Under the pieces are notes generated by a model that was given only the letters and a program-made list of their open reading frames with translations, had not been told where the DNA came from and searched no databases. A stretch of DNA of 23,223 nucleotides from a virus. Position 1 is the first letter of the stretch, and every line of letters begins with the position of its first letter. The stretch covers positions 1 to 23,223 of IMG/VR virus record IMGVR_UViG_3300032103_000260. One strand, given 5' to 3'. This document shows positions 1,127-22,967 of this stretch, one piece after another. The translations under genes and the position numbers were made by a program.

Positions 1127-1290
1127 TTACCTGATCCATTCAATCACTATATGATTATCATTTTTTATATGGGTTAATAATTTTATATTATTAGGTATGT
1201 CATAATGTAACATTTCACCTTCTGGTATATTTGTATTTCTAAAATAGAAGAAATAAGAGATACATTTTCTACAAGAGGATTATTTTTCAT
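1127..1290 (-). CDS. Small EGE-motif protein (frameshifted near N-terminus)
   Basis: C-terminal frame YFFYFRNTNIPEGEMLHYDIPNNIKLLTHIKNDNHIVIEWIR*, similar to the two upstream neighbours. Confidence 0.55.
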
Positions 1291-1532
1291 ACAATAAACC
1301 AATTATCAACTACAACATGAGTATTTTTTGTTTCTATATTATTTTTAAATAGGGTTTTAATATGTTGAGGTAATTCATTATAATCTTCAATATAGATTGC
1401 ATTATAAATAATGGCTTCACCTTCACAGATAATTTCTTTTCTTTTATCATGTTCCAAGTAAGAGAAAAAGAATGCATTACAGGAAGATGGTTTGGAAAGA
1501 ACGTTTTGAACTTTATAGTTTTTATTTACCAT
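1287..1532 (-). CDS. Small EGE-motif protein
   Basis: ORF 1287-1571, with likely start at the internal Met (1532) overlapping the upstream stop. Contains ICEGEAIIY...LPQHIK...NTHVVVDNW. Confidence 0.65.
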   Translation of the reverse strand: MVNKNYKVQNVLSKPSSCNAFFFSYLEHDKRKEIICEGEAIIYNAIYIEDYNELPQHIKTLFKNNIETKNTHVVVDNWFIV

Positions 1533-1773
1533 AGTCACGGGTGTATATAGCATCATGATTAACAATTTCATATTTACTGTTGTTAATCATCATAAGGACA
1601 TACCAATTAATTACGTCACTAGTATTAATTATAATTTTATTTTGTATGTTTTTAGGGGTTTCATTTAGATGAGGGTAGATTATAGATTCACCTTCCAATA
1701 TAAATGAAATTGTCGTATAGTGAATCATGTACGAATATAATCCTCTAATTAATATTACTTTTGGGTTTTTCAT
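1522..1773 (-). CDS. Small EGE-motif protein
   Basis: 83-aa ORF with ILEGESIIY...TPKNIQ...DVINW. Confidence 0.65.
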   Translation of the reverse strand: MKNPKVILIRGLYSYMIHYTTISFILEGESIIYPHLNETPKNIQNKIIINTSDVINWYVLMMINNSKYEIVNHDAIYTRDYGK

Positions 1774-1777
1774 AGCT

Positions 1778-2392
1778 TTACATTCCAGTTATAATTCCTA
1801 ATACATCAATCCAACCAGTACCTAATTTATGTTTCTTTTTTCTTGGTTTATTTGGGTCATAGGTTTCACCGAACATACCTTTTATTACGGGGTATTGGTA
1901 AGTTATTTGTGTTGATGAGGTTTGTTGTGTGGATGATACTTCGTATTTAAGCATTTCTCTATATTGTTCTGGATTTTTTTTATGGAATACAGTTCTATCT
2001 TTGATGCTTACCAGATAAGATGTGTTTATGGGATTGGAGTTTGGTTTAAGGGTAATAGTTATATAGAGTGAATCTTTCCGTTTAAGGGTGATAGGTGAGA
2101 GCAAATATACCGAGTTCGGGGCTTGGCTCATTGTCGTAAATTCTTTAGTGTAGATATTTTCTTTGTTATGATAGATATTGAGAATAACTTTATCACCAGT
2201 TAAAGTTTCTTTATCTGTGACAAAGAATACAAGGTGATCGAAAGATACGGATTGTTTTATTTGTGATTTAGTTACCCACATTATTTTAATGGGTTTATTA
2301 GGTGATAGGCTATCTACTCGATTATAATTATAATCGATTTGTGCCATTATGAATAATGGCATAAGCAATAGAATAATAGATATGGTTTTCAT
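1778..2392 (-). CDS. Secreted/periplasmic hypothetical protein
   Basis: 204 aa; signal peptide MKTISIILLLMPLFIMA followed by Q; promoter motif directly upstream. Confidence 0.75.
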   Translation of the reverse strand: MKTISIILLLMPLFIMAQIDYNYNRVDSLSPNKPIKIMWVTKSQIKQSVSFDHLVFFVTDKETLTGDKVILNIYHNKENIYTKEFTTMSQAPNSVYLLSPITLKRKDSLYITITLKPNSNPINTSYLVSIKDRTVFHKKNPEQYREMLKYEVSSTQQTSSTQITYQYPVIKGMFGETYDPNKPRKKKHKLGTGWIDVLGIITGM

Positions 2393-2398
2393 ATTTAT

Positions 2399-2427
2399 AT
2401 TATACGATAAAGTGCAATATAGAGTTA
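2399..2427 (-). promoter_or_regulatory. Phage promoter TAACT-N16-CGTATAAT
   Basis: Exact motif and spacing, just upstream of ATG 2392. Confidence 0.75.
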
Positions 2428-2610
2428 TTTACCAGAAATTACCAAATTTGGGTTAAAATATTTGTTTTTAATTGATTTGAGGGGGTTTAAATTGCCAGAT
2501 ATTACCAGATTGAATTAGTACTTATGAGATATGAGAGACAATTCCAAAAGGTTATTAGAGTTATTTGAGTACAAAAATAAGGGGTCGATAAGTGAGGGTT
2601 CTTTATTATT

Positions 2611-3405
2611 ATGAAAAAGACATCAACAACAAGATTAATTTAATTATTTGAATCAGTGAATAGAATAAAGTTACCTGAATCAACACCTATTAAGGAATTT
2701 GTAGAATTAAATGAGGTTACTTTAGATTCTGTTAAAAAGCAATTTGTGGATACAAATAAAATACCACAAGAAATGTTTGACCAGATAATGAGAGTAACTA
2801 ACAACAAATTAGCATATGCTGTTTGGATGATTAAAAGAATATTAGATAATTCATTATTAGGTGAGGATGTATATAAGTTCAAGGATTATTTTAGAGCTTT
2901 CGAAAAATACAAGGCACAGTATCCTATGAAGGATATTAATCAATATAAGACAAAAGAACAGGTAGATCAGTTCAAGTAAAAGTCAATTGAGATTCTTGAG
3001 AAAGTAGCTTTAATGGGAAGTGAGCAATCTGGTGATGAAATTGATTTATCTAATAAAGAAAATCTGGTTAGTTTAAATGATATTCAGAAATTAAAGTCAG
3101 TGGGTATTTAATTTTTAGGTATGGTAGATGGATATCAAGTTTTTGAAATACCTAAAGGTGCTTTAGATCAAAAAACCTATGAAACATATAGAGATATTTT
3201 AGGTAGATGCCAAGGTAGAGACAGAGGTGCAAGAATTGAGATAAGTACGATTGCCAGCTACGAATATTATAGAAAATATGTTACTACAAACAGTTTATAT
3301 TTATTTTTTAATTTAAATGATCCAAATTCACCATATCAATTTCATTATGGAGAAAATGGTAGTGATGGACAATTTATGGATAAAAATGATAATTCATTAA
3401 TATAG
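2611..3405 (+). CDS. Jumbo-phage hypothetical protein (KDINQY ... YQFH ... FMDxND type), single gene interrupted by two in-frame TAA and an early frameshift
   Basis: ORFs 2656-2979 and 3121-3405 are in the same frame and read through TAA 2977 and TAA 3109 with protein-like sequence between (KSIEILEKVALMG...KLKSVGI). ATG at 2611 is out of frame by an indel. Confidence 0.6.
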
Positions 3406-3410
3406 TTAAT

Positions 3411-4034
3411 ATGAACGTATATAATTTTTTTAAATTTTTAGAACAAAAGAAAGGTGAGAAAATACCTTTTGAGGCTAAATTATCTTATGGAGATATGAGT
3501 GATGATGAGATCATAAGAATATTACATATAGATATGGAATATTTAAAATATATAAAAAATCCATCAGAGAAGATTCAACATTTTGTACTTAATTATGGAT
3601 TAGATACTACAAATAGTGATGCTTGGATAAGATCAACACTACAATTAATAAAAAAGCCATCACATAGTATAATACTAGAAGCAATTAAATTATTTAATGA
3701 TAGTACTAATATGCTTTATGTTCTTAATTATATCACAAGAAGAGGTGTTAAACTAACTGAAGAAATACAATTAGAATTAATTAATAGAAAACCTGAAATA
3801 TTATTATATTTTTTATCTTTTTATAGTCATGAGAAACCATCTGAAAGAGTGCAGATTGAGGCAGTTAGTAGAAATGGTGATATTATGGGACATATATTTG
3901 ATGCAGGTATTACACCATCAGAAGATGTAATGGTTGCTGCAATAAAGAATAAAAGATCGGTATACGATGATCTTATTAATATTGGTAAGATACAACCTAC
4001 AGAAAAAATGAAACAAGCTGCTGGAATTTCTTAA
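3411..4034 (+). CDS. Alpha-helical repeat protein (DUF4116-like PSExVQxxAV repeats)
   Basis: Internal repeats IKNPSEKIQ, IKKPSHSIILEAI, KLTEEIQLELI, EKPSERVQIEAV, ITPSEDVMVAAI, IQPTEKMKQAAG. Confidence 0.7.
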   Translation: MNVYNFFKFLEQKKGEKIPFEAKLSYGDMSDDEIIRILHIDMEYLKYIKNPSEKIQHFVLNYGLDTTNSDAWIRSTLQLIKKPSHSIILEAIKLFNDSTNMLYVLNYITRRGVKLTEEIQLELINRKPEILLYFLSFYSHEKPSERVQIEAVSRNGDIMGHIFDAGITPSEDVMVAAIKNKRSVYDDLINIGKIQPTEKMKQAAGIS

Positions 4035-4160
4035 TTAATATTCTATTGCTTCACCTTCAAGACCTATGATTTTATTATTGTTAATTAGATAAGTTGCAAA
4101 GTACAATCTTGTACTTGGTGAGTTAATAGGTCTATAGTATGTTTTGTATTTAATTTTCAT
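4035..4160 (-). CDS. 41-aa EGE-motif protein
   Basis: MKIKYKTYYRPINSPSTRLYFATYLINNNKIIGLEGEAIEY*; resembles 14918-15100 (MIIKY...TRRIYF...LEGERLDY). Confidence 0.6.
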   Translation of the reverse strand: MKIKYKTYYRPINSPSTRLYFATYLINNNKIIGLEGEAIEY

Positions 4161-4260
4161 AATAAATTCTTTCACCCTCTAATACTGCTCTTTTAATTCT
4201 TGCTATTGAAAACTGAATAATATATGTTGATGCAATATTTAGAAATAGTCTATTCGCGAC
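4150..4260 (-). pseudogene. 5'-truncated EGE-motif ORF fragment
   Basis: Open frame VANRLFLNIASTYIIQFSIARIKRAVLEGERIYYEN* with no ATG, preceded by TAA at the end of the ncRNA-associated motif. Confidence 0.4.
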
Positions 4261-4305
4261 TTAGATTTCAGGCTTCCTACTGTTGTTTTGTCTTCAAGCA
4301 GAAGA
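4261..4305 (-). repeat. Small RNA motif copy 1 (TCTTCTGCTTGAAGACAAA ... CCTGAAATCT)
   Basis: 19 nt at 4287-4305 identical to 17676-17694; TCTTC/GAAGA hairpin; second shared block CCTGA(G)AATCT. Confidence 0.65.
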
Positions 4306-4317
4306 GTTTTATTATTA

Positions 4318-4877
4318 TGAGCACCCTCTTGTCTTACTTAATGATATAATTACACCTAATGATGATATCCAGTTTCTTAAACTGCTAAGAGTTGGGTCGT
4401 AGTTTTAATAGCTTCGATTGCAATTACACCATAATGTAATACTTACCATTATTCTAATCCATGCCTTTGGATTACTACTTGCTGAGAACTCATTTGTGTT
4501 GTAAGCTCCATAACGCTTCATTTTTTATTCCTTTCTCAAGGGAACAACACATATAGGATTACTCCAATACTCAAATACACTTGGGTAATTTCTTACCGTT
4601 CTTTAAAAGTCTTATCCTGTCAATTGAGGATTAGTAATTTGCATTTACCAAAAAGTAAATGAGATACTCACAAAGGATCAATGTTTAGCCTATAAATAGA
4701 ACGACTTAGTTTCTCACGTTCTTGTACTACTCTCTTGGCTTTGTAGCTTTTCACACAACTATACACCGTAAATTGCGTGATTATATTTATTACATTTGTC
4801 TTGTACTTCAACAAATGTAATAGGTGTAGGCTTTCATTGTTGCCAACAACTAATCACCTGTAGCTATCTCTTGCTAC
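4318..4877 (-). ncRNA. Large structured ncRNA (~560 nt), ROOL/GOLLD-class candidate
   Basis: No ORF of 60 aa or more; promoter and boxA upstream. Hairpins: 12-bp TATTACATTTGT/ACAAATGTAATA (4788-4822), GTAGC/GCTAC (4860-4877), CATTTAC/GTAAATG (4642-4661), GGTAA-GAAA-TTACC (4584-4597), TAATCCA/TGGATTA (4455-4474), CAGTTT/AAACTG (4370-4384). Long-range pairs TGTGTTGT/ACAACACA (4544-4551 with 4495-4502) and TGAGTTCTC with GAGGGTGCTCA. Family assignment unverified. Confidence 0.65.
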
Positions 4878-4901
4878 TTGTTTTTGTTTTATTTTCTTAA
4901 A

Positions 4902-4913
4902 TTTTCAAAGAAC
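4902..4913 (-). promoter_or_regulatory. boxA-like antitermination element GTTCTTTGAAAA
   Basis: Resembles rrn boxA; lies between promoter and ncRNA; identical copy at 17703-17714. Confidence 0.6.
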
Positions 4914-4924
4914 GATTATGTTAT

Positions 4925-4953
4925 ATTATACGTAAAAAAACAAAAAAAGGTTA
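4925..4953 (-). promoter_or_regulatory. Phage promoter TAACC-N16-CGTATAAT driving the ncRNA
   Basis: Exact motif, not followed by an ORF. Confidence 0.75.
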
Positions 4954-5029
4954 TGTTTTGGTTAAAAAATATTTTTTAACTAAAAACTTATATAAAGTAT
5001 TTTGGTTTGCTTGATGTAATTCTTTTTTT

Positions 5030-5452
5030 TTAATTATGATTAATTTGAGATAGGTTTCTCCATGTAAATTCATCATTGTTTATATCAAGTCTTACATGTA
5101 GACCACGATCATCTTCATAAAGAATGGCAATTTTATATCTAACAATAGTTCCATCATGTTTTCTTTTAACTTCATCGATGACCCTATCACCTAATTTGAA
5201 TTCTACACCATCTATTGAACGTTCAACGACTTCATATGAGGTATGTTCTTCTCTTGTTCTTCGAACGATTCTAAATGAATTAAATAGGTTTTCCATCTGC
5301 TTGTTATAGGTATTCTCAGCACCTTCTTTAAGAAATGCTTTGAGTGTATGTGGATCGCTTTCGAGTTCGGTAAGATAATCAAGGAAGAATTTCTTTAGTT
5401 CTTGATTTCTAAATAGTTCAGCTAATTGCGGGTTGTTTCTAAAGTGAATCAT
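5030..5452 (-). CDS. Hypothetical protein
   Basis: 140-aa ORF in operon context. Confidence 0.7.
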   Translation of the reverse strand: MIHFRNNPQLAELFRNQELKKFFLDYLTELESDPHTLKAFLKEGAENTYNKQMENLFNSFRIVRRTREEHTSYEVVERSIDGVEFKLGDRVIDEVKRKHDGTIVRYKIAILYEDDRGLHVRLDINNDEFTWRNLSQINHN

Positions 5453-5470
5453 AATAAGAAATATAATTAA

Positions 5471-6016
5471 TCAACCTAAATGAAATCTTTCTCCAATCAT
5501 CATTAATTTTTCTTGCATTTCCCAATTAGGATTTTGATCTTCTGAATATAAGAAAAACATTTTTCTTTCTGGATCGAGTTTATCCAATATTTTTTTATAA
5601 TTCTTTTTTGTTACAAAAGACATATTCCACTTATTTTTTTTATCTTTAAGATTGTCTCTTAGTTCATATTGAACTTCACCATTCCAAGCTGGTTTTTTGG
5701 GTTTGCCAGTTTCCCAATCTTTTTCTGGTTCATATAATTCATCAAAAGTAAAACCATCTGGAACAGGATACATAGATTTTGATGCTGGCCACATATGTGG
5801 ACTGCATAAATATCTAAAATAATTATTCAGTTCATCAATACTTAATTCTGAAATATGCTTTACCTCATTATATTCGTTTCTATAATCAGGATAAACATTA
5901 GAAATCATTTCTTCAACAATTTCCTTAGTTTCACCTTTAAGAACAAATAATTCTGATGATGAATTTGTAATTATATCAACTACGTTTTTTGGTTTAAAAA
6001 TAAATAATGTTTTCAT
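5471..6016 (-). CDS. DIITNSSSELF-motif protein A (radical SAM-associated)
   Basis: 181 aa; N-terminus MKTLFIFKPKNVVDIITNSSSELFVLK. Confidence 0.8.
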   Translation of the reverse strand: MKTLFIFKPKNVVDIITNSSSELFVLKGETKEIVEEMISNVYPDYRNEYNEVKHISELSIDELNNYFRYLCSPHMWPASKSMYPVPDGFTFDELYEPEKDWETGKPKKPAWNGEVQYELRDNLKDKKNKWNMSFVTKKNYKKILDKLDPERKMFFLYSEDQNPNWEMQEKLMMIGERFHLG

Positions 6017-6017
6017 T

Positions 6018-6399
6018 TTAATAATCGTTTGTTAATAATACAAAACCTAAATTTTTTAAAATTTCATGATGTCTATAATTAATTATATATGCCCAATCTC
6101 TGTCAAATATTAAAGCATAGTAATTAGGTTGAGACAAATTGATTCTTGATTTCCTCACGTTTGTGTTCTGGAATCTTGTCTAAAAAATCATTTAACATCC
6201 AATCTTCCTCATATGTATTGTGTTCACCCTCAAATATCCTTACTTCAAGATCATTAAGACCAATTTGAGTAATGTCAGCCAAAGCATCTTTAACCATTTC
6301 ATAAATAATTTCTTTTTTCTTATCTGCTTTTATTACAAATAATTCTGAACTACTATTAGTAATAATATCAATGCAATTTTCAATTTTAATTATTAACAT
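6018..6399 (-). CDS. DIITNSSSELF-motif protein B (frameshift ~6135)
   Basis: MLIIKIENCIDIITNSSSELFVIK starts at 6399 inside the 230-aa ORF. Another frame continues SQPNYYALIFDRDWAY...LLTNDY* to 6018, abutting ATG 6016. Confidence 0.65.
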
Positions 6400-6816
6400 A
6401 TCTATATTTTTTTTTATGTGTAATGCTTTCATATTATTAGTTAAATATGTATTATATTTGTCAGCTTCTTCTTTTACTTTTTTAAGTTGTTTATGAATTA
6501 ATTCTTTTATTGATGTTGAAGTATCATTTACGTGAATACTCGAAGGACTTGAGCCATTAAATCCAAATACATCATAAGTTTCTTTATTTTCATGAATAGT
6601 TATATTACCACCAACTAAACTAACAGAATAATGCCATCCTAAGTTTTCCCATATATTTTTTTTCCATTTTCCACCTATTTCATTTTCAAATTTCTCAATT
6701 AGTAAATCAGCATTTGCATGTGCTTTTAAATACTCATCATGTGTACAATTTGCACCACAAGCAGGTGCGCAGTAAATTTCACCATTACGAACAGCATCCC
6801 AACTTAATTTTTCCAT
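6400..6816 (-). CDS. Small Cys-motif protein (YCAPACGANC...WENLGWHY), probably fused to the next gene by an A-run indel
   Basis: N-terminal half of ORF 6124-6816; A9 run at the junction (~6407-6415). Confidence 0.6.
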
Positions 6817-6824: not shown

Positions 6825-7655
6825 TTATTTGAATCTTAAATCATAAGATGACTTTCTTATTTTAGTGTATGTATCATCCATTATTCTATATCCAGAATAA
6901 ATTTCTGGTTCGTAAACATCAATATCTAAGATATTGTTTTTATTTAAAAATTCATAAAATAGAGCACCAAAAGCGAATTGTTTTTGTCTATCATTAGATT
7001 TACTTTTAATCCAACTAAAACATTTAATCCAATTGTTTTCAGTTTCTATTTGTTTTGCTCTTCCAACAGCTTGATAAGGTAAAATTACGAAATAATCTAC
7101 ATTATCTTTATAATTTTCATATAATTCTTCTAAATCTGTCAAACTATCATCAGAACCAACAATTATATGAAAATTTAATTTAGTTTTTATTTGTTTTAGT
7201 GAATTTGTTGCTTTCTCAAATACTTTAGCAATATGAGGATGCCAACTAAGTGCCACACCACCACAATATTTTTCGGTAGCCTCAAGTATTTTATCAGTCA
7301 AATGCATACCATTTGTAGTGTAATTTGGAATGATTTCAAGATTTCTAACTGTTTTTACAAAATCAATAAAATCAGGATGCATAGTTGCTTCACCAGCACC
7401 ACCTATTGCTATTTGGAATGGTCTATCGTTCAATTCTAGTTTACCCCAAACTTCGTTTGCTTTATCTGTTATGTTACTAAAATTCACACCTGTTTTTAAT
7501 GCATTAGTATAGCAATAAGAGCAATTCGCCAGACATTTGTTGTTAATTGCAACATCTTCTAACTCTGGTGTTATTGGTATACCATTAGTCAATCTAATAG
7601 TTTTAAAGCTATTAGTAAAGAATGATTTATACTTTCCTTGCTCTCTGATTCTCAT
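6825..7655 (-). CDS. Radical SAM enzyme
   Basis: CLANCSYCY (CxxxCxxC), GGAGEATMHPDF (GGE-type motif), NYTTNG; no obvious SPASM cysteines. Confidence 0.92.
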   Translation of the reverse strand: MRIREQGKYKSFFTNSFKTIRLTNGIPITPELEDVAINNKCLANCSYCYTNALKTGVNFSNITDKANEVWGKLELNDRPFQIAIGGAGEATMHPDFIDFVKTVRNLEIIPNYTTNGMHLTDKILEATEKYCGGVALSWHPHIAKVFEKATNSLKQIKTKLNFHIIVGSDDSLTDLEELYENYKDNVDYFVILPYQAVGRAKQIETENNWIKCFSWIKSKSNDRQKQFAFGALFYEFLNKNNILDIDVYEPEIYSGYRIMDDTYTKIRKSSYDLRFK

Positions 7656-13922: not shown

Positions 13923-14546
13923 ATGAGTAGGCTTTTAAAGTATATTATATTGGTTCTATTGTTTCTTTGGGCATTAGCATCAGATGCACAAAATTGTCCT
14001 CAAAACACAATTTTTATTGATAAGAAGGTATATCAGGTTTGTTATTCTGAACAATTTAAAAACCCTATAATTGTTAGCTACAAATTGTATAAACCTAAAT
14101 ATTTAGTTGAAAGAGGTGGTATGAATTTTCATAAAGAAGAGGGTATTACTACAGCAACAGATGAAGACTTTAAATACAATTACTATGATAAAGGGCATTT
14201 AGCACCTGCTGAAGCATTCTCTGGCAGTAGAGAATCATTACTATTAACATTTTCTTATGTTAACTGTGCAGTACAGCATCAAGATTTAAATAGGGGTGTA
14301 TGGAAAGCATTAGAGAAGTATGAGAGAGATTATGCTTTCAATGATAGCATATTAGTAATTAATGAAGTTATATTCTTAAAGAGCAAAGCTACTGGTGATT
14401 ATAGCAAATTAAAGACTGGTGCATACATACCTGATTACTTTCAAAAAACTATCATCAATTTAAGAACAAAGACTAAAAGAGTATTCAGATTTCCTAACAT
14501 AGCACCAAAAGAAGGTAGTAGATATACTGATTACGAAATCCGTTGA
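13923..14546 (+). CDS. Secreted DNA/RNA non-specific endonuclease (NucA/EndoG, His-Me family)
   Basis: YDKGHLAPA, TFSYVNCAVQHQDLNRGVWKALE, IPDYFQK; signal peptide ending ASDA-Q. Confidence 0.92.
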   Translation: MSRLLKYIILVLLFLWALASDAQNCPQNTIFIDKKVYQVCYSEQFKNPIIVSYKLYKPKYLVERGGMNFHKEEGITTATDEDFKYNYYDKGHLAPAEAFSGSRESLLLTFSYVNCAVQHQDLNRGVWKALEKYERDYAFNDSILVINEVIFLKSKATGDYSKLKTGAYIPDYFQKTIINLRTKTKRVFRFPNIAPKEGSRYTDYEIR

Positions 14547-14698
14547 CTAGGAGGGTGATAGTTAATAATTTCACCTTCTCAACGTAAATTGATTTCAACC
14601 TTGTATGTTATTTCATAAATTAATTTGCGTGTATCTTTATCAACACCAATTAATCTAAAAAAACCATGACCTAGTGAATATTCTTTAAATTCTATCAT
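14531..14698 (-). CDS. Small EGE-motif protein (in-frame TGA at 14579-14581)
   Basis: MIEFKEYSLGHGFFRLIGVDKDTRKLIYEITYKVEINLR*EGEIINYHPPSQRIS*. Confidence 0.5.
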
Positions 14699-14916
14699 TT
14701 CTTAATTATGATATGTGCTTTACCATCTATCACTTCAAATCTATAATATTCCCCTTCGATTAAATCAACATCAGACACTACTTCATACTGTTTTATATCT
14801 CCACCAACTTTTTTAATACCACTCCAACCAGTTTTCCAATTACCACCTGAAAGAGCACGAACAACTGGAGTTCTATACTCAATTTTTCCGTTTTTATAAA
14901 TTCCTCTTCCTTTCAT
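14695..14916 (-). CDS. Small protein with EGE motif
   Basis: 73 aa, DLIEGEYYRF. Confidence 0.65.
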   Translation of the reverse strand: MKGRGIYKNGKIEYRTPVVRALSGGNWKTGWSGIKKVGGDIKQYEVVSDVDLIEGEYYRFEVIDGKAHIIIKK

Positions 14917-14917: not shown

Positions 14918-15100
14918 TTACTTTTTTTTATATGGTGCGTAATCTAAACGCTCACCTTCGAGATTATCACCTTTAAATGTTAGATCACAATCAATAAAAC
15001 TATTACCACTATTGAAATAGATTCTTCTGGTTATGTCCTTATCTATATCAATATCAGTTAAATATTTATGACCTGTTTTACTTCTGTATTTAATTATCAA
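14918..15100 (-). CDS. Small EGE-motif protein
   Basis: 60 aa, TRRIYF...NLEGERLDY. Confidence 0.6.
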   Translation of the reverse strand: MIIKYRSKTGHKYLTDIDIDKDITRRIYFNSGNSFIDCDLTFKGDNLEGERLDYAPYKKK

Positions 15101-15120: not shown

Positions 15121-15288
15121 TTATAAAATTATTTCTCCTTCGTATAACAACAAACCAATATCAGATGTATACACAAGATCACGTATTATTTCTGTTTTTT
15201 CCATATTTTTGGTAACATGTCTAATATATTTACTTCCAATAGGAATAATTTCGCAATAAAAAAATGTAAATACCCATGAATCCATCAT
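15121..15288 (-). CDS. Small EGE-motif protein (55 aa)
   Basis: MMDSWVF...KYIRHVTKNMEKTEIIRDLVYTSDIGLLLYEGEIIL*; shares DLVYTxD..L.L.EGE with 17226-17432. Confidence 0.6.
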   Translation of the reverse strand: MMDSWVFTFFYCEIIPIGSKYIRHVTKNMEKTEIIRDLVYTSDIGLLLYEGEIIL

Positions 15289-15438: not shown

Positions 15439-15693
15439 TTATTTATTATATAATTTTTTTAAATAATCACGATATTCTAATTCTTCACCTTCATCTAATT
15501 CAGCACCATTATCTTCATTACGTGTAAAATCAAATATAACAACATTTAATTGATTATCATAACATAAAATTCTTTTATAATCTACACCTTTAAATGTAAA
15601 TGCATAACAAATAATACGATCACTAGTATCTATTTCAAAATGATATTCATTGATTAGTACATTGATTAATTTTTTATGTTGTCTACGAGTCAT
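15439..15693 (-). CDS. Small EGE-motif protein
   Basis: 84 aa, KRILCY...LDEGEELEY. Confidence 0.65.
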   Translation of the reverse strand: MTRRQHKKLINVLINEYHFEIDTSDRIICYAFTFKGVDYKRILCYDNQLNVVIFDFTRNEDNGAELDEGEELEYRDYLKKLYNK

Positions 15694-16577
15694 AATGAAT
15701 ATGAATATAATACCTTAATCTTAATACCATACTTAAATACAGTACCTGTTTTTGTTAATTTCTGTCTTTTTATTGTACCTCTACATAATTTACTAATGTA
15801 ATCTGTTTTTACATTATAATGTCTAGCTGCATGGTATATTGTTTTGTGTTTCTTAACTAAGATATTATTATAATATTCTTCGATAGAATAAATCCATTTA
15901 TATTTTGGTTTCTTTCTTGGTTTAGGTGGTGGTAACGAATTCTCTTGTTTCTTAATTAAGTTCTTAATATTTATTTTGGGAATGCTTGAGTTGCTTTTGG
16001 ATAAAAATATTTGAATTCATATTCTTTAATCCAGAAGAAATCATCTACAAGTCTGTGTTTAAATTTTTTTTCTATCAACAATCCCATATAATTTTGATCT
16101 AGAACCACCATTAATTACTTTATAGTCTTTGAATACTTTAGTTGCAGCATCCTTAATTAACTTCCAAGATTTGATTAATTTACCTGATTGATCATACTGA
16201 TAAATAGCTTTATGTTTTGATTCACTTAATCTATTTAAGGTATGTATATCCTTTTCTTTACCAACCCAATATCCTTCACCTTTACCAAAGAATCCACGTT
16301 TTCCTTTAAGTAGATGTTTAGCGTTTTTTAAATTATTACCATCTTTATGGAAGAGAATGTTTATTAATTTATCATCAAACCATTTTTTATCGGTGGTTAT
16401 ATCAATAGGTACTATTTCAATTTTATTTGCAGGAGTATTTTCAAATAATCTATTTTTTATACCATACAAAGGGCTTCTTGGTATTTGATTTTTTTATTTA
16501 TCAAATAATATAGTTTTACCAATATAGATCAACTTATTATTCTTTTTTAATCCAAAAAGTTTAATTTTATTGTTCAT
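15690..16577 (-). CDS. GIY-YIG-like / NUMOD1-repeat homing-endonuclease-type protein (disrupted)
   Basis: ATG 16577 gives KLFGLKKNNKLIYIGKT, then in-frame TAA 16494-16496, then NUMOD1-like AIYQYDQSGKLIKSWKLIKDAA. After frameshifts there is a second NUMOD1/HTH-like unit SIEEYYNNILVKKHKTIYHAARHYNVKTDYISKLCRG. Confidence 0.65.
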
Positions 16578-17225: not shown

Positions 17226-17432
17226 TCAGTAAAAACATTCTCCCTCAAATAGCATTATTAATCTACTATCATAAGTATAGACAAGATCATGACCTAATCT
17301 ATTTTTATAATCATATATAAATATAGTTCTTTCATATTTATCATTCAATTTAATTTTCTGACAGGTAATAATCGAAGAATCATTATACCTTTTAACGGTA
17401 TACATTTCATGATGTAGATTAATCATTGCCAT
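17226..17432 (-). CDS. Small EGE-motif protein
   Basis: 68 aa ending HDLVYTYDSRLIMLFEGECFY*. Confidence 0.65.
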   Translation of the reverse strand: MAMINLHHEMYTVKRYNDSSIITCQKIKLNDKYERTIFIYDYKNRLGHDLVYTYDSRLIMLFEGECFY

Positions 17433-17613
17433 ATGCCATATACGGGATATCGTGACTAACTTTTTTATCTACAGACAAGTATTCCCCTTCAGGGACATAG
17501 TTGTTGTCATACAAACAATCATTCAAAATGATATTCTCAGTTTTATGTATCTTAACATATCTTAAAAAATCTCCATGTGAAAAAACTCCGTAAACCACCT
17601 TTACAACAAACAT
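17419..17613 (-). CDS. Small EGE-motif protein
   Basis: 64 aa, FLRYVKIHKTENIILNDCLY...VPEGEYL. Confidence 0.6.
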   Translation of the reverse strand: MFVVKVVYGVFSHGDFLRYVKIHKTENIILNDCLYDNNYVPEGEYLSVDKKVSHDIPYMAYGND

Positions 17614-17714: not shown

Positions 17715-17721
17715 TATTTTG

Positions 17722-17910: not shown

Positions 17911-18177
17911 TTACCCATAATATTTATATAATTCATCTGAAGTAATTTTCTTAACTTTAGGTTCTTCAATGTAGTTAAAATATGATATACACTCACCTTC
18001 AACACCATTTAAATGATGTATAGTATAATCTTCATATAACTTAATAATTGGAACAAATACCTTTTTTCTTATCTTATCATCATCAATGGGTAGTTGTATA
18101 ACATCCCTATTAACCTTTATTTCTTCTTTATCCGTTATTTTTGAATTAAATAATATTTAGCTATCAATTAAGAACAT
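17911..18177 (-). CDS. Small EGE-motif protein (in-frame TAA at 18157-18159)
   Basis: MFLIDS*ILFNSKITDKEE...HHLNGVEGECISYFNY...LYKYYG*. Confidence 0.55.
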
Positions 18178-18178
18178 A

Positions 18179-18478
18179 TTATTTACCGTATCTGTCTTTC
18201 AAAGTTTTTGTCAGTCTGTTCAATCTATCAGATGGAACTTCATTATCAATATACACAAAGCATTCACCTTCTTCTATATTATTTTTAATTCCAACAACAA
18301 CATCTTCATACATATCATTTTTGTATTGAAGTTTTTTGTAATAATTAGTTCTAAGAAACTCTACTCTAATTAGATTAAAGTTTACATCAGTTATATTATA
18401 TTTTACTAAATCATATTTATGCATATTCTTATACCATCCCCAAGTAAACCAAATTAAATCTTTTGTTTCTATTATCAT
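18179..18478 (-). CDS. Small EGE-motif protein
   Basis: 99 aa, NIEEGECFVY. Confidence 0.65.
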   Translation of the reverse strand: MIIETKDLIWFTWGWYKNMHKYDLVKYNITDVNFNLIRVEFLRTNYYKKLQYKNDMYEDVVVGIKNNIEEGECFVYIDNEVPSDRLNRLTKTLKDRYGK

Positions 18479-18672
18479 CTTTCACGAACAACAGTGATAA
18501 ATTCACCTTCTATTTGATTAGTATTATCATCAATCAAATAATTGATAATTTTACAAACATCATTTCTAAATTCACCTTTATTATAGTAGCCAGTGCTATA
18601 CATATACTCACTACAATTCTTAGGTCTTTTTTTACACCAATCAATTTTTCCAGTGGTATTTATAGTTATCAT
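18475..18672 (-). CDS. Small EGE-motif protein
   Basis: 65 aa, YLIDDNTNQIEGEFITV. Confidence 0.6.
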   Translation of the reverse strand: MITINTTGKIDWCKKRPKNCSEYMYSTGYYNKGEFRNDVCKIINYLIDDNTNQIEGEFITVVRER

Positions 18673-18949
18673 TTTTACTTCTTAAATTTCTTAATTCACT
18701 AACTTTACATTTAAATAATGTTGTTCTTTTATTTCTTGGATTATCTAAATATGCATATTCACCTTCAATTTTTTTCAGCACAAATTGAGCACCTTTAAAT
18801 GCCCATGAAATATGATATCTTTTTCCAATGATTGGTTTATCTGGAACATTAAAACTACCATCAACATCTGATTGTGTCTTTTTTGACCAATGCTTCTTAC
18901 CTGAAGTAAGAACATAAATCTGATTTTGTGTTAATGGCTTTAACTCCAC
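18641..18949 (-). CDS. Hypothetical protein (contains IEGEYAY)
   Basis: 102-aa ORF. Confidence 0.65.
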   Translation of the reverse strand: MELKPLTQNQIYVLTSGKKHWSKKTQSDVDGSFNVPDKPIIGKRYHISWAFKGAQFVLKKIEGEYAYLDNPRNKRTTLFKCKVSELRNLRSKNDNYKYHWKN

Positions 18950-19363: not shown

Positions 19364-19630
19364 TTAATCATCACCATATGGCTCTTCATAATATGATCTC
19401 ACAAACGGGTCTTGCTTGAATGTGTGAACAAATTCATATTGTTTTTCTTTTGGTATAGCATCTAGCATTTTACGAATTTCTGGTGTATCAGCAATTAGAT
19501 AACCACCAGTAAAGAATATTTCACCGTTTTTTTCAATAACAGGCATATGATTCTTTCTATTCATTCTGTTAGCTAACAAAGTAACTTCTTCGTAGCCATT
19601 AGATGATGGAGTGATATACAGTATTCTCAT
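19364..19630 (-). CDS. Hypothetical protein
   Basis: 88-aa ORF, ATGA overlap. Confidence 0.7.
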   Translation of the reverse strand: MRILYITPSSNGYEEVTLLANRMNRKNHMPVIEKNGEIFFTGGYLIADTPEIRKMLDAIPKEKQYEFVHTFKQDPFVRSYYEEPYGDD

Positions 19631-19857
19631 TTTTTATTTGTTTTGAATCTTCCACTTTTTAAAAAATTTGTTTTAATAACAGATTTCTTTTTTGTCTTAA
19701 CTTCTTCAATTACTTCGTTATAACCTGCTTCATCAAGTTCTTCTTCAATTTCTTTTTTTACTTCAATAGCACCAGACTTCTTTTTTACCCTTTTATGTTT
19801 TTTAGGTGATTTTTCAGTGATAAATCGACCTTTTATTTTTCTCAGAGTTCTGCTCAT
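19627..19857 (-). CDS. Small basic protein
   Basis: 76 aa, Lys-rich; first gene after a promoter. Confidence 0.65.
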   Translation of the reverse strand: MSRTLRKIKGRFITEKSPKKHKRVKKKSGAIEVKKEIEEELDEAGYNEVIEEVKTKKKSVIKTNFLKSGRFKTNKK

Positions 19858-19862
19858 AGTAT

Positions 19863-19891
19863 ATTATATGATAAAAGTTATAAAAAGGTTA
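19863..19891 (-). promoter_or_regulatory. Phage promoter TAACC-N16-CATATAAT
   Basis: One mismatch to consensus, just upstream of ATG 19857. Confidence 0.7.
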
Positions 19892-20172
19892 AAATGGATA
19901 TTCACCATAAGGAATTTTATGGAATTCTAATACCCATATAAGCCTAATATCATTAATCATGTTATCCAATTAAATCAATTAATTTTCTATTTCTAAGAAT
20001 CTTTTCTTTATTGTTATAAAACCAAATAATATCGTCAAATTTTTTCGAACTTGGTGAGATATCTTTAATTTCTTTAGATACTTTATCTGCAAGATCATTA
20101 AGATGTTTTTTATCTTCTTCCTATTGTCTTTCTCTTTCTTCGTCCATAATTCTACTTAGCGAACTTCCCATA

Positions 20173-20508
20173 TCATTTCTTGTTTTTTTGTTTTAAAAAT
20201 TCTTCAAAAGTACCACCTTTACTTCCACCATGACCATCCGATCTTGATGCCCATGATACATATTCATAATGCAAATCATGCTTTTCTTTCAACCAATCAA
20301 AATCATCTTCAGTGCATGGTTTAAATCCACAACCAATTAATGTTGTATAATCGTAAAGATTACCAACCCATTCACGATCAATATTATTCTTGTGAGTATA
20401 CTCATCACTATCTGTCATTTGAAAAATAGCATAATCTGTTGGTCTGTAAAAATATTTTGGATGATGGTATTTCCATTTACGAATATCTTCGTGAATCTCA
20501 AATGTCAT
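20173..20508 (-). CDS. Hypothetical protein
   Basis: 111-aa ORF. Confidence 0.7.
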   Translation of the reverse strand: MTFEIHEDIRKWKYHHPKYFYRPTDYAIFQMTDSDEYTHKNNIDREWVGNLYDYTTLIGCGFKPCTEDDFDWLKEKHDLHYEYVSWASRSDGHGGSKGGTFEEFLKQKNKK

Positions 20509-20758
20509 TTTCTGTATTGTTTTCCAGCCATATTACATTATTACTATAAGTAATTACTTCACTCTCAATAAATCTCGATGATGTTTTGGTGTGAATTAAA
20601 TATTGTTTAATTAGTTTTTTATTGATTACTACTTTGACATTATCATCGATATCTATTTTACTAATCCTAAACATATGCGATAAAATACTTTTCGGCTTAT
20701 AGTCTTTTTTTCTAACTATTAAAGACGCTAACCAATTCACAAATTTATCTACCACCAC
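20498..20758 (-). CDS. Hypothetical protein
   Basis: 86-aa ORF overlapping neighbours. Confidence 0.6.
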   Translation of the reverse strand: MVVDKFVNWLASLIVRKKDYKPKSILSHMFRISKIDIDDNVKVVINKKLIKQYLIHTKTSSRFIESEVITYSNNVIWLENNTENDI

Positions 20759-21003
20759 TTTTTATCTTTATGTATAGAATCAAAAAATGTATACAACAAT
20801 GCTGTTGTCATAAGACCTAACATACCATACCAGAAGTGGTATTCAATACCAATATAATTAAATATTAATTTTATAAATAATAAAAATATCAAACCGAATA
20901 CTGACATAAAAAATAAAAATCCTAACTTAGTGTCATCAATAAATTTAGGAAACCAATTTTTAAATTTGTTAAAAAAATCAGTCATTTGCTTATCAGTCCA
21001 CAT
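20749..21003 (-). CDS. Small membrane protein (2 TM)
   Basis: Two hydrophobic segments, LGFLFFMSVFGLIFLLFI and FWYGMLGLMTTALLYTFF. Confidence 0.7.
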   Translation of the reverse strand: MWTDKQMTDFFNKFKNWFPKFIDDTKLGFLFFMSVFGLIFLLFIKLIFNYIGIEYHFWYGMLGLMTTALLYTFFDSIHKDKKWW

Positions 21004-21008
21004 AATTA

Positions 21009-21287
21009 TTATTGGTTACGTTTTAGTGCTCTATTAATTTCAATACAGGCAACTCCTAATGCTGTAACTTTTCTTAGTACATCCATTATTTCTTTATTAC
21101 CTTCAGTGCCGACTCTTTCATCTTTAGTGGATGCAAGTGTTCTTGCTTTTGAAAGATATTCTTCCACCCACAAAATGAATGATGATGGATTATTGATTTC
21201 TTTGTTAAGATTATTCCAAAGTTTTTCTTGGTAATCTCTTTCAGTGTCAATTACTTGATACGCTTCTTGTTTGGTTAATTTATTCAT
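21009..21287 (-). CDS. Small helical protein, possibly MazG/NTP-pyrophosphatase-like
   Basis: IDTERDYQEKLW...WVEEYL...LRKVTALGVACIE pattern; functional call tentative. Confidence 0.55.
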   Translation of the reverse strand: MNKLTKQEAYQVIDTERDYQEKLWNNLNKEINNPSSFILWVEEYLSKARTLASTKDERVGTEGNKEIMDVLRKVTALGVACIEINRALKRNQ

Positions 21288-21298
21288 ATAATTTTTGA

Positions 21299-21547
21299 TT
21301 AAAATTTCACTTTATCGCTATAACAAATAGTTTTCTCTATCGTGTTGCCTTCTTCATCTTCAAAATATATTTTTTCCATAATTATATGGATTGTCCCATT
21401 ATTACATTTCATTAAAATTTGATAATAGTCTGGATTGTTATCAATCGATTTATTAAGTGATCTATAACTACCGAATTTTTTAATTAAGTTTTCATTATCA
21501 TCGATAGCCCAAATTTTTATTGTATCAGGTTTTTTTAATTTTGCCAT
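21299..21547 (-). CDS. Hypothetical protein
   Basis: 82-aa ORF. Confidence 0.6.
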   Translation of the reverse strand: MAKLKKPDTIKIWAIDDNENLIKKFGSYRSLNKSIDNNPDYYQILMKCNNGTIHIIMEKIYFEDEEGNTIEKTICYSDKVKF

Positions 21548-21905
21548 CTAACAATTCAGGATTTTCATATTTGTTACCTAAAACAACATATCTCGATGGA
21601 TTTAAATAAGAATTATTTATATATCCGTCTTCAATCCATCTAAGTGACCATATACCTATACTATTCCAAACTATCTCTGCAAGTACATTTTTTCTACCAC
21701 CATAATTAAAAGAAACAATATCATCTTCATATATTTCATTACCATTACGGTATTTTAAACCAGTAAATTGAAGTAGAATATAATTACCTTTAATTGCTCC
21801 TGTTCTGCAGTATCCTGATAATTCAAAAAAAATATCTCGACACAATTCAGGTGGATTCATTTCTTTGAATTCAACATCCCGTGCTTTAAATTTTATTGTT
21901 CTCAT
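21525..21905 (-). CDS. YopX-family phage protein
   Basis: MRTIKFKAR...LQFTGLKYRNGNEIYEDDIV...VLGNKYENPELL. Confidence 0.9.
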   Translation of the reverse strand: MRTIKFKARDVEFKEMNPPELCRDIFFELSGYCRTGAIKGNYILLQFTGLKYRNGNEIYEDDIVSFNYGGRKNVLAEIVWNSIGIWSLRWIEDGYINNSYLNPSRYVVLGNKYENPELLDGKIKKT

Positions 21906-21938
21906 TAAAAATTAGTTTATTCTTAAAGACCTATGGTA

Positions 21939-22073
21939 CTATGATATACATGTTAATGTAAGTAATTCTTTTCCAAGAATAATTTCACCTTCAAGTCTAC
22001 GAAAATAAAAAACATCAATTTCAAATGTGTTCCATGTTTTATTGAAGGATTTTGTGAAGGTATAAAACTTCAT
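21939..22073 (-). CDS. 44-aa EGE-motif protein
   Basis: MKFYTFTKSFNKTWNTFEIDVFYFRRLEGEIILGKELLTLTCIS*; FYFR...EGE as in 1127-1290. Confidence 0.5.
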   Translation of the reverse strand: MKFYTFTKSFNKTWNTFEIDVFYFRRLEGEIILGKELLTLTCIS

Positions 22074-22079
22074 AATTTT

Positions 22080-22108
22080 TAACCAAATTTAGTCAAAAAT
22101 CGTATAAT
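22080..22108 (+). promoter_or_regulatory. Phage promoter TAACC-N16-CGTATAAT (plus strand)
   Basis: Exact motif upstream of plus-strand ATG 22168. Confidence 0.75.
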
Positions 22109-22167
22109 ATAGTCTAAACATATAAAAAAATTTAAAAAAACCTTATTTTTACCAAAAATAGAAGATT

Positions 22168-22723
22168 ATGAAAATTACTGAGATTAATAATCGCTTACCT
22201 AAAAAGGTTAAATTAAACAAAAACTTTACTTTGGAAGAAAGTTTTTATGTTAATACTATCCTATTGGTAAAAGGTGCTAATATTGTTGATTGGGATGGTA
22301 AAAGTGAGAAATGCTACAAAGTTTTTGTAACTGCTCTGGCTGAAGATATGGATCATAACCGTTCAGTTGCAATAGCTGATTGGTTTGACAATAAATGGTG
22401 CTCCAACTAAAACATATTATGATGTAAATCGTAAACTTATCGATCAATGGGGTAATCTTAATGACGTAATTTACGTCATGGAAAATGATGATTGTTTTAA
22501 TCTTGTTGAAGATAGTAATAAACCAAAAATTCAATTCGCTATTGATGAATTGAATAAACTCGATGAAGAGTTGAAAAGAAAACACAATACCTTATATGGT
22601 GCATTAACAGTTGATGGACAAAACATAACTGAAAGGGTTAGGATTGGTGGTAAAATGGAAGGTATTGATTTAGCAATAAAAGAAATCAGAAGGCAATTAA
22701 ATGATTTACAGAATCAACTATAA
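22168..22723 (+). CDS. Hypothetical protein, probably one gene split by a frameshift at ~22392
   Basis: ORFs 22168-22410 and 22385-22723 overlap and join as ...ADWFDN/NGAPTKTYY... Confidence 0.6.
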
Positions 22724-22754
22724 ATTATATTTGACTTAGTGATAATCTAAATCA

Positions 22755-22967
22755 ATGAGTAGACAAATTAAAATATATAATAACTATACAAAAATTACCG
22801 TAAATGAAAACAATGGTAAAAGAATTTATTATATTCATAACAAAAAAAATATAATATTTTGTGATGGTTTTATTTTAGACTCTAATGAGTTTGGATTGTT
22901 AGGATTTAGAGAAGGTGAAAGAATATTTAAATTTGAAGAATTGTATTTGGACGGTTTGGAGGTTTAA
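22755..22967 (+). CDS. Small EGE-motif protein (plus strand)
   Basis: 70 aa, KRIYY...GLLGFREGERIFKF. Confidence 0.6.
   Translation: MSRQIKIYNNYTKITVNENNGKRIYYIHNKKNIIFCDGFILDSNEFGLLGFREGERIFKFEELYLDGLEV

What the first reader, a model, noticed from the sequence alone, without database searches (positions are those of the whole stretch)
1127..22967. Large expanded family of tiny, hyper-diverged 'EGE-motif' genes (~18 copies in 23 kb)
Seen: about 18 short ORFs (41-102 aa, many missed by the ORF track) carry E-G-E followed by hydrophobic residues and usually Y/F, mostly near the C-terminus: PEGEMLHY (1215), CEGEAIIY (1417), LEGESIIY (1688), LEGEAIEY (4051), LEGERIYY (4172), EGEIINY (14571), IEGEYYRF (14750), LEGERLDY (14952), YEGEIIL (15134), DEGEELEY (15485), FEGECFY (17239), PEGEYL (17483), VEGECISY (17993), EEGECFVY (18264), IEGEFITV (18503), IEGEYAY (18759), LEGEIIL (21985), REGERIFKF (22911, plus strand). 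Pairs share more than the motif: DLVYTxD..L.L.EGE (15121 and 17226), M.IKY...RxYF (4035 and 14918), FYFR..EGE (1127 and 21939). DNA variation in the motif is only at wobble positions (GAA/GAG, GGT/GGA/GGG), which points to protein-level selection. Inference: a diversifying mini-protein family with a constant docking motif and variable remainder, such as an anti-defence or host-binding repertoire, or cargo for a shared partner. The common GAAGGTGA could also act as microhomology for shuffling. The 14750 and 18759 hits may be incidental.
Basis: partly seen in the sequence, partly recalled or inferred. Interest (0 to 1): 0.85.

Follow-up and report, generated by a model that had tools for sequence, protein, structure and literature searches.

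The report
Tiny "EGE" protein family in phage
A large uncultured phage and its few known relatives carry dozens of very small, very different genes that all keep one eight-residue signature (hydrophobic-Glu-Gly-Glu-x-Ile-x-Tyr). They form a real, undescribed, fast-changing gene family whose function is untested and is probably to act on the host.

Summary
E-G-E is about 24 times over expectation in the small genes of the first 31 kb (14 seen, 0.59 expected) and is not enriched elsewhere in the 178-kb genome.

The signature is longer than three residues: hydrophobic-EGE-x-[I/L]-x-Y-[E/D]. It is always in frame. Codon usage explains why GAAGGTGAA dominates, so selection acts on the protein.

About half of the members also share a weak profile upstream of the motif. 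Two members only 21% identical are both predicted as five-stranded beta sheets with EGE inside the last strand. I therefore read the motif as part of the fold rather than a free docking tail.

Copy number changes fast:
- This genome has 20 ORFs plus 2 fragments; five of these 22 are truncated or hit by stops.
- A close relative has 24 EGE genes among 28 on one 7.4-kb contig, 21 of them in a row.
- A more distant relative has six.

Intact orthologues are under purifying selection, and one truncated copy is relaxed. No Pfam, PHROG, PDB or fold match was found. Only this phage clade has the family among 1.8 billion representative proteins.

It is a new family of a known kind: a lineage-specific expansion of small accessory genes in a large phage. 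Function is unknown. A repertoire of variable host-binding proteins is inferred, not shown.

Other windows of this scan reported similar arrays with different motifs in E. coli jumbo phages.

The parts
1127..1279 (-). Member A: broken copy. The EGE frame is open for 50 codons but has no ATG, GTG or TTG before the motif. The nearby ATG is in another frame.
   Evidence: family HMM 28 bits
1287..1571 (-). Member B: 94 aa, EGE in mid-protein, with a C-terminal extension shared with A and C.
   Evidence: BLASTP against C gives E = 3e-3
1522..1773 (-). Member C: 83 aa.
4035..4160 (-). Member D: 41 aa (ATG at 4160), with the motif at the C-terminus. It has an orthologue in the relative L025 and pN/pS of 0.24.
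4150..4260 (-). Member E: N-terminally truncated copy with no start codon. The intact 44-aa orthologue is at L025:4426-4560. pN/pS is 0.80.
14531..14698 (-). Member F: a 39-aa ORF that ends at a TGA placed directly before the EGE motif (14570-14578). An intact look-alike lies at L021:1078-1242.
14695..14916 (-). Member G: 73 aa. Doubtful member; it has the motif only and the lowest leave-one-out scores.
14918..15100 (-). Member H: 60 aa with a TTG start. It has the best upstream-profile score.
15121..15288 (-). Member I: 55 aa, a paralogue of K.
   Evidence: BLASTP E = 2e-4
15439..15693 (-). Member J: 84 aa.
17226..17432 (-). Member K: 68 aa, with the motif at the C-terminus. Modelled as five beta strands with EGE in the fifth. 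It has orthologues in two relatives.
17419..17613 (-). Member L: 64 aa. It overlaps the start of K. The L-K pair is conserved in L021, and pN/pS is 0.42.
17911..18156 (-). Member M: 81 open codons without a start. The in-frame upstream ATG is followed by a TAA after six codons.
18179..18478 (-). Member N: 99 aa.
18475..18672 (-). Member O: 65 aa.
18641..18949 (-). Member P: 102 aa with a GTG start and pI 9.9. Doubtful member; it has the motif only.
21939..22073 (-). Member Q: 44 aa.
22755..22967 (+). Member R: 70 aa, the only plus-strand member. Modelled as five strands plus a C-terminal helix, with EGE in strand 5. Orthologues exist in G001 and in two metagenome fragments.
6223..6231 (-). Incidental EGE inside a 230-aa protein. 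It is not a family member.

Best explanation
These are members of one clade-restricted multigene family of very small proteins of about 40-100 aa.

**Shown:**
- The signature hydrophobic-E-G-E-x-[I/L]-x-Y-[E/D] is selected at the protein level.
- Intact members are under purifying selection.
- The genes sit head to tail with overlapping stop and start codons in a variable accessory region next to rIIA/rIIB.
- Copy number swings from 6 to more than 30 between related phages.
- Several copies in this genome are decaying.

**Predicted:** the proteins fold as a five-stranded antiparallel beta sheet. EGE-x-I-x-Y forms the last strand. If the strand is regular, this places the two Glu, the Ile and the Tyr on one face, with a Gly between the two Glu.

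**Inferred:**
- The conserved strand is the keystone that lets such a tiny sheet fold.
- The other strands and loops are free to vary, so the array is a repertoire of variable binders on one scaffold.
- They are most likely made early to bind host or defence proteins.
- The set is renewed by gene duplication, gain and loss of gene cassettes, and decay.
For: **Enrichment and frame.** Enrichment statistics are. All 13 GAAGGTGA sites are in the EGE frame. The conserved flanking Ile/Leu and Tyr use different codons.

**Extended motif.** In 59 instances, +4 is I or L in 54, +6 is Y in 37 of 57, and +7 is E or D in 27 of 54.

**Signal beyond the motif.** With whole groups left out, a profile built only from the region upstream of the motif places 10 of 26 members in the top 5% of 2967 ORFs. 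Six of 26 beat 95% of control coding genes, against 1.3 expected.

**Structure models.** K gives pLDDT 77.6 and R gives 83.8. They are 21% identical. Both have five strands with EGE in the fifth, and they share the same weak top structural neighbours.

**Conservation in orthologues.** The motif is kept in orthologues that are only 38-44% identical.

**Selection (pN/pS).** D 0.24, L 0.42 and K 0.50, against 0.18-0.29 for neighbouring genes and 0.80 for the truncated copy.

**Turnover.** L025 has 24 EGE genes among 28 and L021 has 8 clear members among 14, all intact. G001 has six. Insertions and deletions of whole genes separate phages with about 85% DNA identity.

**Assembly check.** A second assembly is 100% identical over 20.4 kb, so the stop codons are not one assembler's error.
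Against: - No expression data exist.
- No function has been tested and no partner is known.
- About half of the members share nothing detectable beyond the eight-residue motif, so common descent of all copies is not proven.
- The models rest on an alignment of the paralogues themselves and are only moderately confident.
- The fold is a generic beta meander with no informative neighbour.
- Isoelectric points range from 4.7 to 9.9, so no common charge-based mechanism is evident.
- At least one member (29857-30054) appears to start right at the motif. This does not fit a fifth-strand position.
Confidence: 0.55

Rival explanations
1. Docking-handle model. The EGE-x-I-x-Y strand is a constant handle that plugs every member into one shared partner by adding a strand to the partner's sheet edge. 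The partner could be a phage or host protein, for example the phage ClpP-like protease next to the array, or a packaging or export machine. The variable part would be the cargo or adaptor.
For: - The motif is by far the most conserved part and survives where all else has diverged.
- If the predicted sheet is a plain up-and-down meander, the last strand is an edge strand and is free to pair.
- In 25 of 59 cases the motif is within 12 residues of the C-terminus.
- A ClpP-family gene lies at 23.7-24.4 kb, beside the arrays.
Against: - No partner was identified.
- In both models the motif is buried in the regular secondary structure.
- Semi-conserved Arg, Asn and Asp positions in strands 3-4 suggest a conserved fold rather than a linear motif.
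- The motif lies anywhere from residue 4 to residue 80.
Confidence: 0.2
2. Assembly-unit model. Each mini-protein is one small sheet that pairs with copies of itself or with other family members through the conserved strand, building larger mixed beta assemblies such as rings or propeller-like bodies.
For: - A lone five-stranded sheet of 45-70 aa has little core of its own.
- Weak structural neighbours include propeller blades and Rhs repeats.
- The genes are translationally coupled in long runs.
Against: All structural matches are at noise level (Z of 6.3 or below). Copy number varies from 6 to more than 30, which is hard to reconcile with a fixed assembly.
Confidence: 0.08
3. Peptide-signal model. 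The motif marks a processing site. It could be a (I/L)-x-E cleavage site of a T4-type head protease, as in injected internal proteins, or the recognition element of precursor peptides modified by the nearby radical SAM enzyme.
For: - Positions -2, -1 and 0 often read [I/L]-hydrophobic-E.
- A radical SAM gene lies at 6825-7655.
- Long tandem arrays of short genes with one constant element resemble arrays of modified-peptide precursors (my own knowledge).
Against: - Position -2 is I or L in only 24 of 59 cases, whereas Gly, the second Glu, Ile and Tyr, which a cleavage site does not need, are the conserved positions.
- The conserved element is C-terminal, not an N-terminal targeting leader.
- The models are folded sheets.
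- No modifying enzyme was called next to the 21-gene array in L025. The only neighbour with a Pfam hit belongs to the GP88 family, and the other neighbours have no hit on record.
Confidence: 0.05
4. Nucleic-acid signal or chance. GAAGGTGAA acts as DNA or RNA, for example as a ribosome-binding-like site, a recombination hot spot or a promoter part. Alternatively, the tripeptide is a composition artefact.
For: - GAAGGTGA resembles part of the extended Shine-Dalgarno consensus (my own knowledge).
- One deletion junction between this genome and L021 lies within 7 nt of two EGE motifs.
Against: - All 13 copies are in one reading frame relative to their ORFs. Synonymous variants occur, and the flanks are conserved as amino acids, not as bases.
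- Only 4 of 114 long genes have any Shine-Dalgarno-like sequence upstream, so this phage does not use one.
- Codon usage predicts the share of exact 9-mers.
- Flanks of paralogues are no more alike than random, at about 33-35% identity.
- Chance is excluded at P = 4e-15.
Confidence: 0.02

Closest known systems
Hyperplastic (variable) regions of T4-type phage genomes, with their small early ORFs that are swapped as cassettes (PMC4122927, PMC2839356)
   Same: - The arrays lie beside rIIA/rIIB, in a stretch where few ORFs have a counterpart in the relative G001.
- Whole small genes come and go at gene boundaries between relatives with about 85% DNA identity.
- Functions are unknown.
   Different: Those regions are described as mixtures of unrelated ORFs. 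Here up to 24 of 28 neighbouring genes belong to one family with one signature. I did not look for the promoter-stem-loop cassette ends described in those papers.
Lineage-specific expansions of one small domain in jumbo phages, for example about 35 zinc-ribbon copies in Bacillus phage G (PMC7824862). Earlier notes of this scan also report FQxS-motif arrays of E. coli jumbo phages.
   Same: Tens of very diverged copies of one small protein in one phage lineage, united by a short motif and with untested function.
   Different: - A different motif, and no zinc-binding cysteines.
- A predicted all-beta fold.
- Smaller proteins (many are 40-60 aa).
- A visible load of decaying copies.
- A different, uncultured phage clade.
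T4 internal-protein locus (IPI, IPII, IPIII): polymorphic small proteins that share only a short targeting and cleavage signal and are injected to counter host defence (my own knowledge)
   Same: The logic is one short constant element with a variable remainder, in a T4-related phage. The reading -2 to 0 as [I/L]-x-E partly resembles the head-protease site.
   Different: - The constant element here is C-terminal or internal, not an N-terminal leader.
- The residues that a cleavage site needs are not the best conserved ones.
- Packaging was not tested.
Small beta-sheet protein inhibitors such as Ugi and SAUGI (uracil-DNA glycosylase inhibitors) and Ivy
   Same: They are of similar size with an antiparallel five-stranded sheet. 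They appear among the top weak structural neighbours of both models.
   Different: Z is only 5-6, which is within noise for such folds. There is no sequence similarity, and the family is not uniformly acidic (pI 4.7-9.9).

Membership tests
Any Pfam or PHROG family | Score above the family threshold | tested here: not met
   Ten members were scanned. The best Pfam match was E = 0.043, below the cut-off. The best PHROG match was phrog_6119 at E = 0.005 for one member only. That model also matched in 4 of 14 control genomes.
Accessory small-gene expansions in variable regions of large T4-related phages | Location in a region that is poorly conserved between relatives and flanked by conserved genes | tested here: met
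   Only a handful of ORFs in 1-23 kb have counterparts in G001, while rIIA, ClpP and the genes at 31-36 kb are 60-88% identical.
Accessory small-gene expansions in variable regions of large T4-related phages | Many diverged paralogues of one small protein within one lineage | tested here: met
   There are 20 ORFs plus 2 fragments here, at least 32 on two contigs of a close relative, and 6 in G001. The family HMM separates members (23 bits or more) from everything else (12 bits or less), but this test is circular for the training members.
T4-type internal proteins | Conserved N-terminal capsid-targeting leader ending in (L/I)-x-E | tested here: not met
   N-termini are not conserved. The constant element is internal or C-terminal, and position -2 is I or L in 24 of 59 cases.
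T4-type internal proteins | Presence in the virion and injection with the DNA | not testable with these tools
   This needs virion proteomics.
Precursor arrays of ribosomally made, modified peptides | Conserved recognition leader or follower plus a hypervariable unstructured core, next to the modifying enzyme | tested here: inconclusive
   The models are folded sheets with pLDDT 78-84. No enzyme family was recorded for the genes beside the 21-gene array in L025. A radical SAM gene lies 2.6 kb away in this genome.
Ugi / SAUGI-type DNA-mimic inhibitors | Fold match well above background, and an acidic DNA-like surface | tested here: inconclusive
   Z is 5.1-6.3, with unrelated chains scoring the same. 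pI spans 4.7-9.9.
Bacteroidota-type adhesin repeats carrying the motif I-C-E-G-E-S-I-T (P0005, P0006) | Repeat unit of about 77 aa with paired Cys, within proteins of about 900 aa | tested here: not met
   Only the motif region aligns (profile positions 18-45). The EGE proteins are single units without the Cys pair.

The most novel reading that the evidence does not exclude
The conserved EGE strand is a universal plug. Dozens of interchangeable mini-proteins would use it to dock onto one common phage or host machine, or onto each other. The phage would then carry a combinatorial, rapidly renewable adaptor or decoy system built from 45-70-residue modules. This would be a viral analogue of a variable-binder repertoire on a fixed scaffold.
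Probability: 0.15. Interest if true: 0.75.

Novelty: new member of a known kind. Interest (0 to 1): 0.5.

Why it matters
Small phage accessory proteins are where most new anti-defence and host-takeover functions are being found, yet nearly all are orphans with no handle for study. This family offers such a handle:
- It has one eight-residue signature that picks out more than 50 natural variants of a predicted single tiny beta-sheet scaffold.
- It has clear orthologues, and it shows gene birth, replacement and decay over short evolutionary distances.

This makes it a usable natural library for asking what such mini-proteins bind. It is also an unusually clear case of birth-and-death evolution, with visible pseudogenes, in a phage genome. 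It further shows that standard ORF calling misses part of the family.

Tried and rejected
**Searches for close relatives**
- Megablast of the whole window and tblastn of member N against 50,697 phage records gave no match.
- Single-protein pattern scans of IMG/VR with N found nothing. With the 138-aa neighbour they found only two distant loci without EGE genes.
- The rIIA alignment found only G001 again.
- The metagenome scan returned G001 and a 99.99% identical twin of it.

**Family and fold searches**
- PHROG, Pfam and a PDB sequence profile gave nothing significant.
- Foldseek against PDB and BFVD, the VIA-align wide search for both models, the ESM Atlas structure search and the Atlas language-model search all stayed at noise level.

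**Other attempts**
- Complex prediction of R as a homodimer returned no verdict (score 0.01, controls not run). This is no evidence either way.
- The promoter and terminator scan was no better than shuffles in this AT-rich DNA.
- Rfam and ARAGORN found nothing in the window.

**Ideas tested and dropped**
- Stop-codon recoding as the cause of the interrupted copies. Both TGA and TAA are involved, and none of the 24 tRNA genes is a suppressor.
- A Shine-Dalgarno role for GAAGGTGA.
- Recent gene conversion among paralogues.
- The ORF-free stretch 4261-5040 as a decayed remnant of the array.

Full report
**What the window is.** The window is the first 23.2 kb of a 178,249-base IMG/VR virus record. 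The record has 28.8% G+C and is estimated by CheckV to be 60% complete. Genes like rIIA and rIIB and a ClpP-family gene lie just beyond the window. The window itself holds:
- a radical SAM gene;
- a Tpt1/KptA RNA 2'-phosphotransferase;
- a GmrSD_N-type protein;
- a non-specific endonuclease with a signal peptide;
- a YopX protein.

No phage in the INPHARED collection matches it at the DNA level. Only 4 of 114 long genes have a Shine-Dalgarno-like sequence upstream. Their leaders are A-rich, as in Bacteroidota and their phages (my own knowledge).

**The observation.** A six-frame scan finds 19 EGE tripeptides in the window. These are the 18 listed plus one inside a 230-aa protein. All are in the frame of the local ORF. 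The whole genome has 34, of which 23 lie in the first 31 kb. Four more motif-bearing units sit at 29.7-30.7 kb.

The enrichment is specific:
- In ATG-ORFs of 110 aa or less in the first 31 kb, 14 EGE are seen against 0.59 expected. This makes EGE the most enriched tripeptide, at 24-fold.
- Small ORFs elsewhere have 0 against 0.53 expected.
- All genes beyond 31 kb have 8 against 11.4 expected.
- Poisson P is 4e-15. In 5000 residue shuffles the maximum was 5.

The pattern EGE-x-[LIVFM]-x-[YF] occurs 14 times in 1-31 kb and never in the remaining 147 kb.

**Protein or DNA?** GAAGGTGA occurs 13 times, always in the EGE frame. Genome codon usage is GAA 86% and GGT 62%. This predicts that about 46% of EGE sites are exactly GAAGGTGAA, and about half are. 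The background EGE sites in long genes use the same codons. The DNA beside the motif is not conserved, while the encoded Ile/Leu and Tyr are, through different codons. Paralogue flanks are about 33-35% identical, which is random for this composition. The phage does not use Shine-Dalgarno sites. The signal is therefore at the protein level.

**Extent of the shared signature.**
- In the 22 copies of this genome, position -1 is hydrophobic in 16 of 21, +4 in 21 of 22, and +6 is aromatic in 15 of 20.
- With relatives added (59 instances), +4 is I or L in 54, +6 is Y in 37 of 57, +7 is E or D in 27 of 54, and -1 is L, I, F or V in 34.
- Pairwise BLAST links only I with K (E = 2e-4) and B with C (E = 3e-3).
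- A 30-sequence alignment brings out semi-conserved Arg, Asn and Asp positions 15-30 residues upstream.

I ran a leave-one-group-out test in which the profile holds only the columns before the motif.
- 10 of 26 members fall in the top 5% of 2967 ORFs.
- Against the best window of each of 123 control coding genes, 6 of 26 beat 95% of controls (1.3 expected) and 13 beat 80% (5.2 expected).

About half of the members thus share more than the motif.

**Predicted fold.** AlphaFold2 was run with the paralogue alignments.
- K: pLDDT 77.6, pTM 0.60, five strands, with EGE at residues 63-65 inside strand 60-66.
- R, which is 21% identical to K: pLDDT 83.8, pTM 0.69, five strands plus a C-terminal helix, with EGE at residues 53-55 inside strand 52-56.

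Both models draw the same weak structural neighbours (5hal, 7rag, Ugi 1eui_C, 4akm, 4qtq, KhtT), with Z of 6.3 or less. That is noise level for small sheets. Foldseek against PDB and BFVD and the Atlas searches add nothing. If the strand is regular, Glu, Glu, Ile and Tyr alternate onto one face. This is inference, because I could not inspect the coordinates.

**Relatives.** Three sources beyond this genome carry the family.

*G001.* G001 is a 246,768-base IMG/VR record whose rIIA is 65% identical. It has six members, at both contig ends. They include orthologues of K, R, U and V. In the V orthologue the first Glu has become Asp.

*Wider searches.* An exhaustive profile search of 1.84 billion representative proteins returned nine hits at E of 1e-3 or below. 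Seven are small proteins of this clade, three of them new. Two are long adhesin-like repeat proteins that share only the motif. Word-based searches of 5.8 billion proteins found only further clade members.

*The close relative from JGI sample 3300037308.* The new hits led to two contigs of one closer relative. Its neighbouring genes are 82-85% identical in protein, and its flanks are 84-87% identical in DNA.
- L021 (3.8 kb) has 8 clear members among 14 genes. Two further genes on this contig contain an incidental EGE.
- L025 (7.4 kb) has 24 EGE genes among 28, including 21 consecutive genes of 40-96 aa.
- All have ATG starts and overlapping stop and start codons.

At the locus where L025 has that run, this genome keeps only D, an N-terminally truncated E and an ORF-free stretch. 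That stretch has no recognisable remnants of EGE genes.

**Evolutionary regime.**
- pN/pS between this genome and the close relative is 0.24 for D, 0.42 for L and 0.50 for K. Neighbouring genes give 0.18-0.29, and the truncated E gives 0.80.
- The trio A/B/C and the trio at the same place in L025 are only 28-35% identical, although the adjacent 204-aa gene is 82% identical. This points either to replacement by other family members or to very fast divergence.
- Most insertions and deletions end at gene boundaries.
- One does not. Homology between this genome and L021 stops 6 nt after K's EGE and resumes 7 nt after the EGE of the fourth extra gene, with 30 unmatched bases between. That is suggestive of motif-guided recombination, but it is a single case.

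**Broken copies.**
- A has no start in frame.
- E is truncated.
- F ends at a TGA placed directly before its EGE.
- M follows an ATG and then a TAA six codons later.
- A 12-codon remnant lies at 29749-29787.

A Logan assembly of run SRR4101185 is 100% identical over 20.4 kb, including two of these sites. None of the 24 tRNA genes is a suppressor. I read these copies as decaying genes.

**What it most likely is.** It is a clade-specific birth-and-death family of tiny beta-sheet proteins. The conserved last strand probably holds the fold together, and the rest varies. By analogy with early accessory genes of other large phages, the likeliest role is a set of binders for host or defence proteins. 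This is inference; nothing here tests it. The rivals, a common docking handle, self-assembly, a processing signal and a nucleic-acid signal, are set out separately with their odds.

**Novelty.** No paper in the searched library mentions such a motif in phages. Expansions of one small domain in jumbo phages are known (PMC7824862), and so are variable small-gene regions of T4-type phages (PMC4122927, PMC2839356). Other windows of this scan reported analogous arrays with different motifs in E. coli jumbo phages. This is therefore a new family of a known kind. It is notable for the very small size of its members, the density of its arrays and the visible gene decay.

Noticed in passing
window 15971-16469 (minus strand), compared with L021:2897-3784: The close relative has one intact 295-aa gene with a weak NUMOD1 match (E = 4e-4, below the cut-off) and a GIY-YIG-like start. 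It looks like a homing endonuclease. In this genome the same gene is N-terminally cut and split into a 136-aa piece and a 46-aa piece.
   Followed up: partly
whole genome G000 (114 genes of 150 aa or more): Only 4 of 114 long genes have a Shine-Dalgarno-like sequence upstream, and their leaders are A-rich. Together with signal peptides ending in A-Q (1778-2392 and 13923-14546), this suggests a Bacteroidota host.
   Followed up: partly
window 4261-5040: This ORF-free stretch sits exactly where the close relative (L025:1023-4458) has about 20 EGE genes. It has no Rfam match, no remnant of the family and no DNA similarity to L025. Another first-reader note proposes a structured RNA here.
   Followed up: partly
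window 2609-4038, compared with L025:4851-5879: The relative has one 342-aa gene of Pfam family GP88 here. This genome has unrelated DNA with three plus-strand ORFs (107, 94 and 207 aa). A whole segment has been replaced between flanks that are 85-87% identical.
   Followed up: no
G000 63819-63891 (outside the window): ARAGORN reports a tRNA-like gene with a four-base anticodon (acgg) at the end of a tRNA cluster. I saw no link to the frameshifted EGE copy.
   Followed up: no
P0005 and P0006 (proteins from the representative library): These are proteins of about 900 aa made of roughly 77-aa repeats, each carrying I-C-E-G-E-S-I-T. They were the only non-phage hits to the family profile. This is probably a coincidence of one beta-strand motif.
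   Followed up: no
window 5471-6816: Two adjacent proteins (181 and 230 aa) share a 42-residue N-terminal block at 52% identity (BLASTP E = 2e-7), next to the radical SAM gene.
   Followed up: no
L005:700-1437 (genome 23700-24437, minus strand): A ClpP-family protease gene lies between the EGE arrays and rIIA. It is 86% identical in the relative G001.
   Followed up: no
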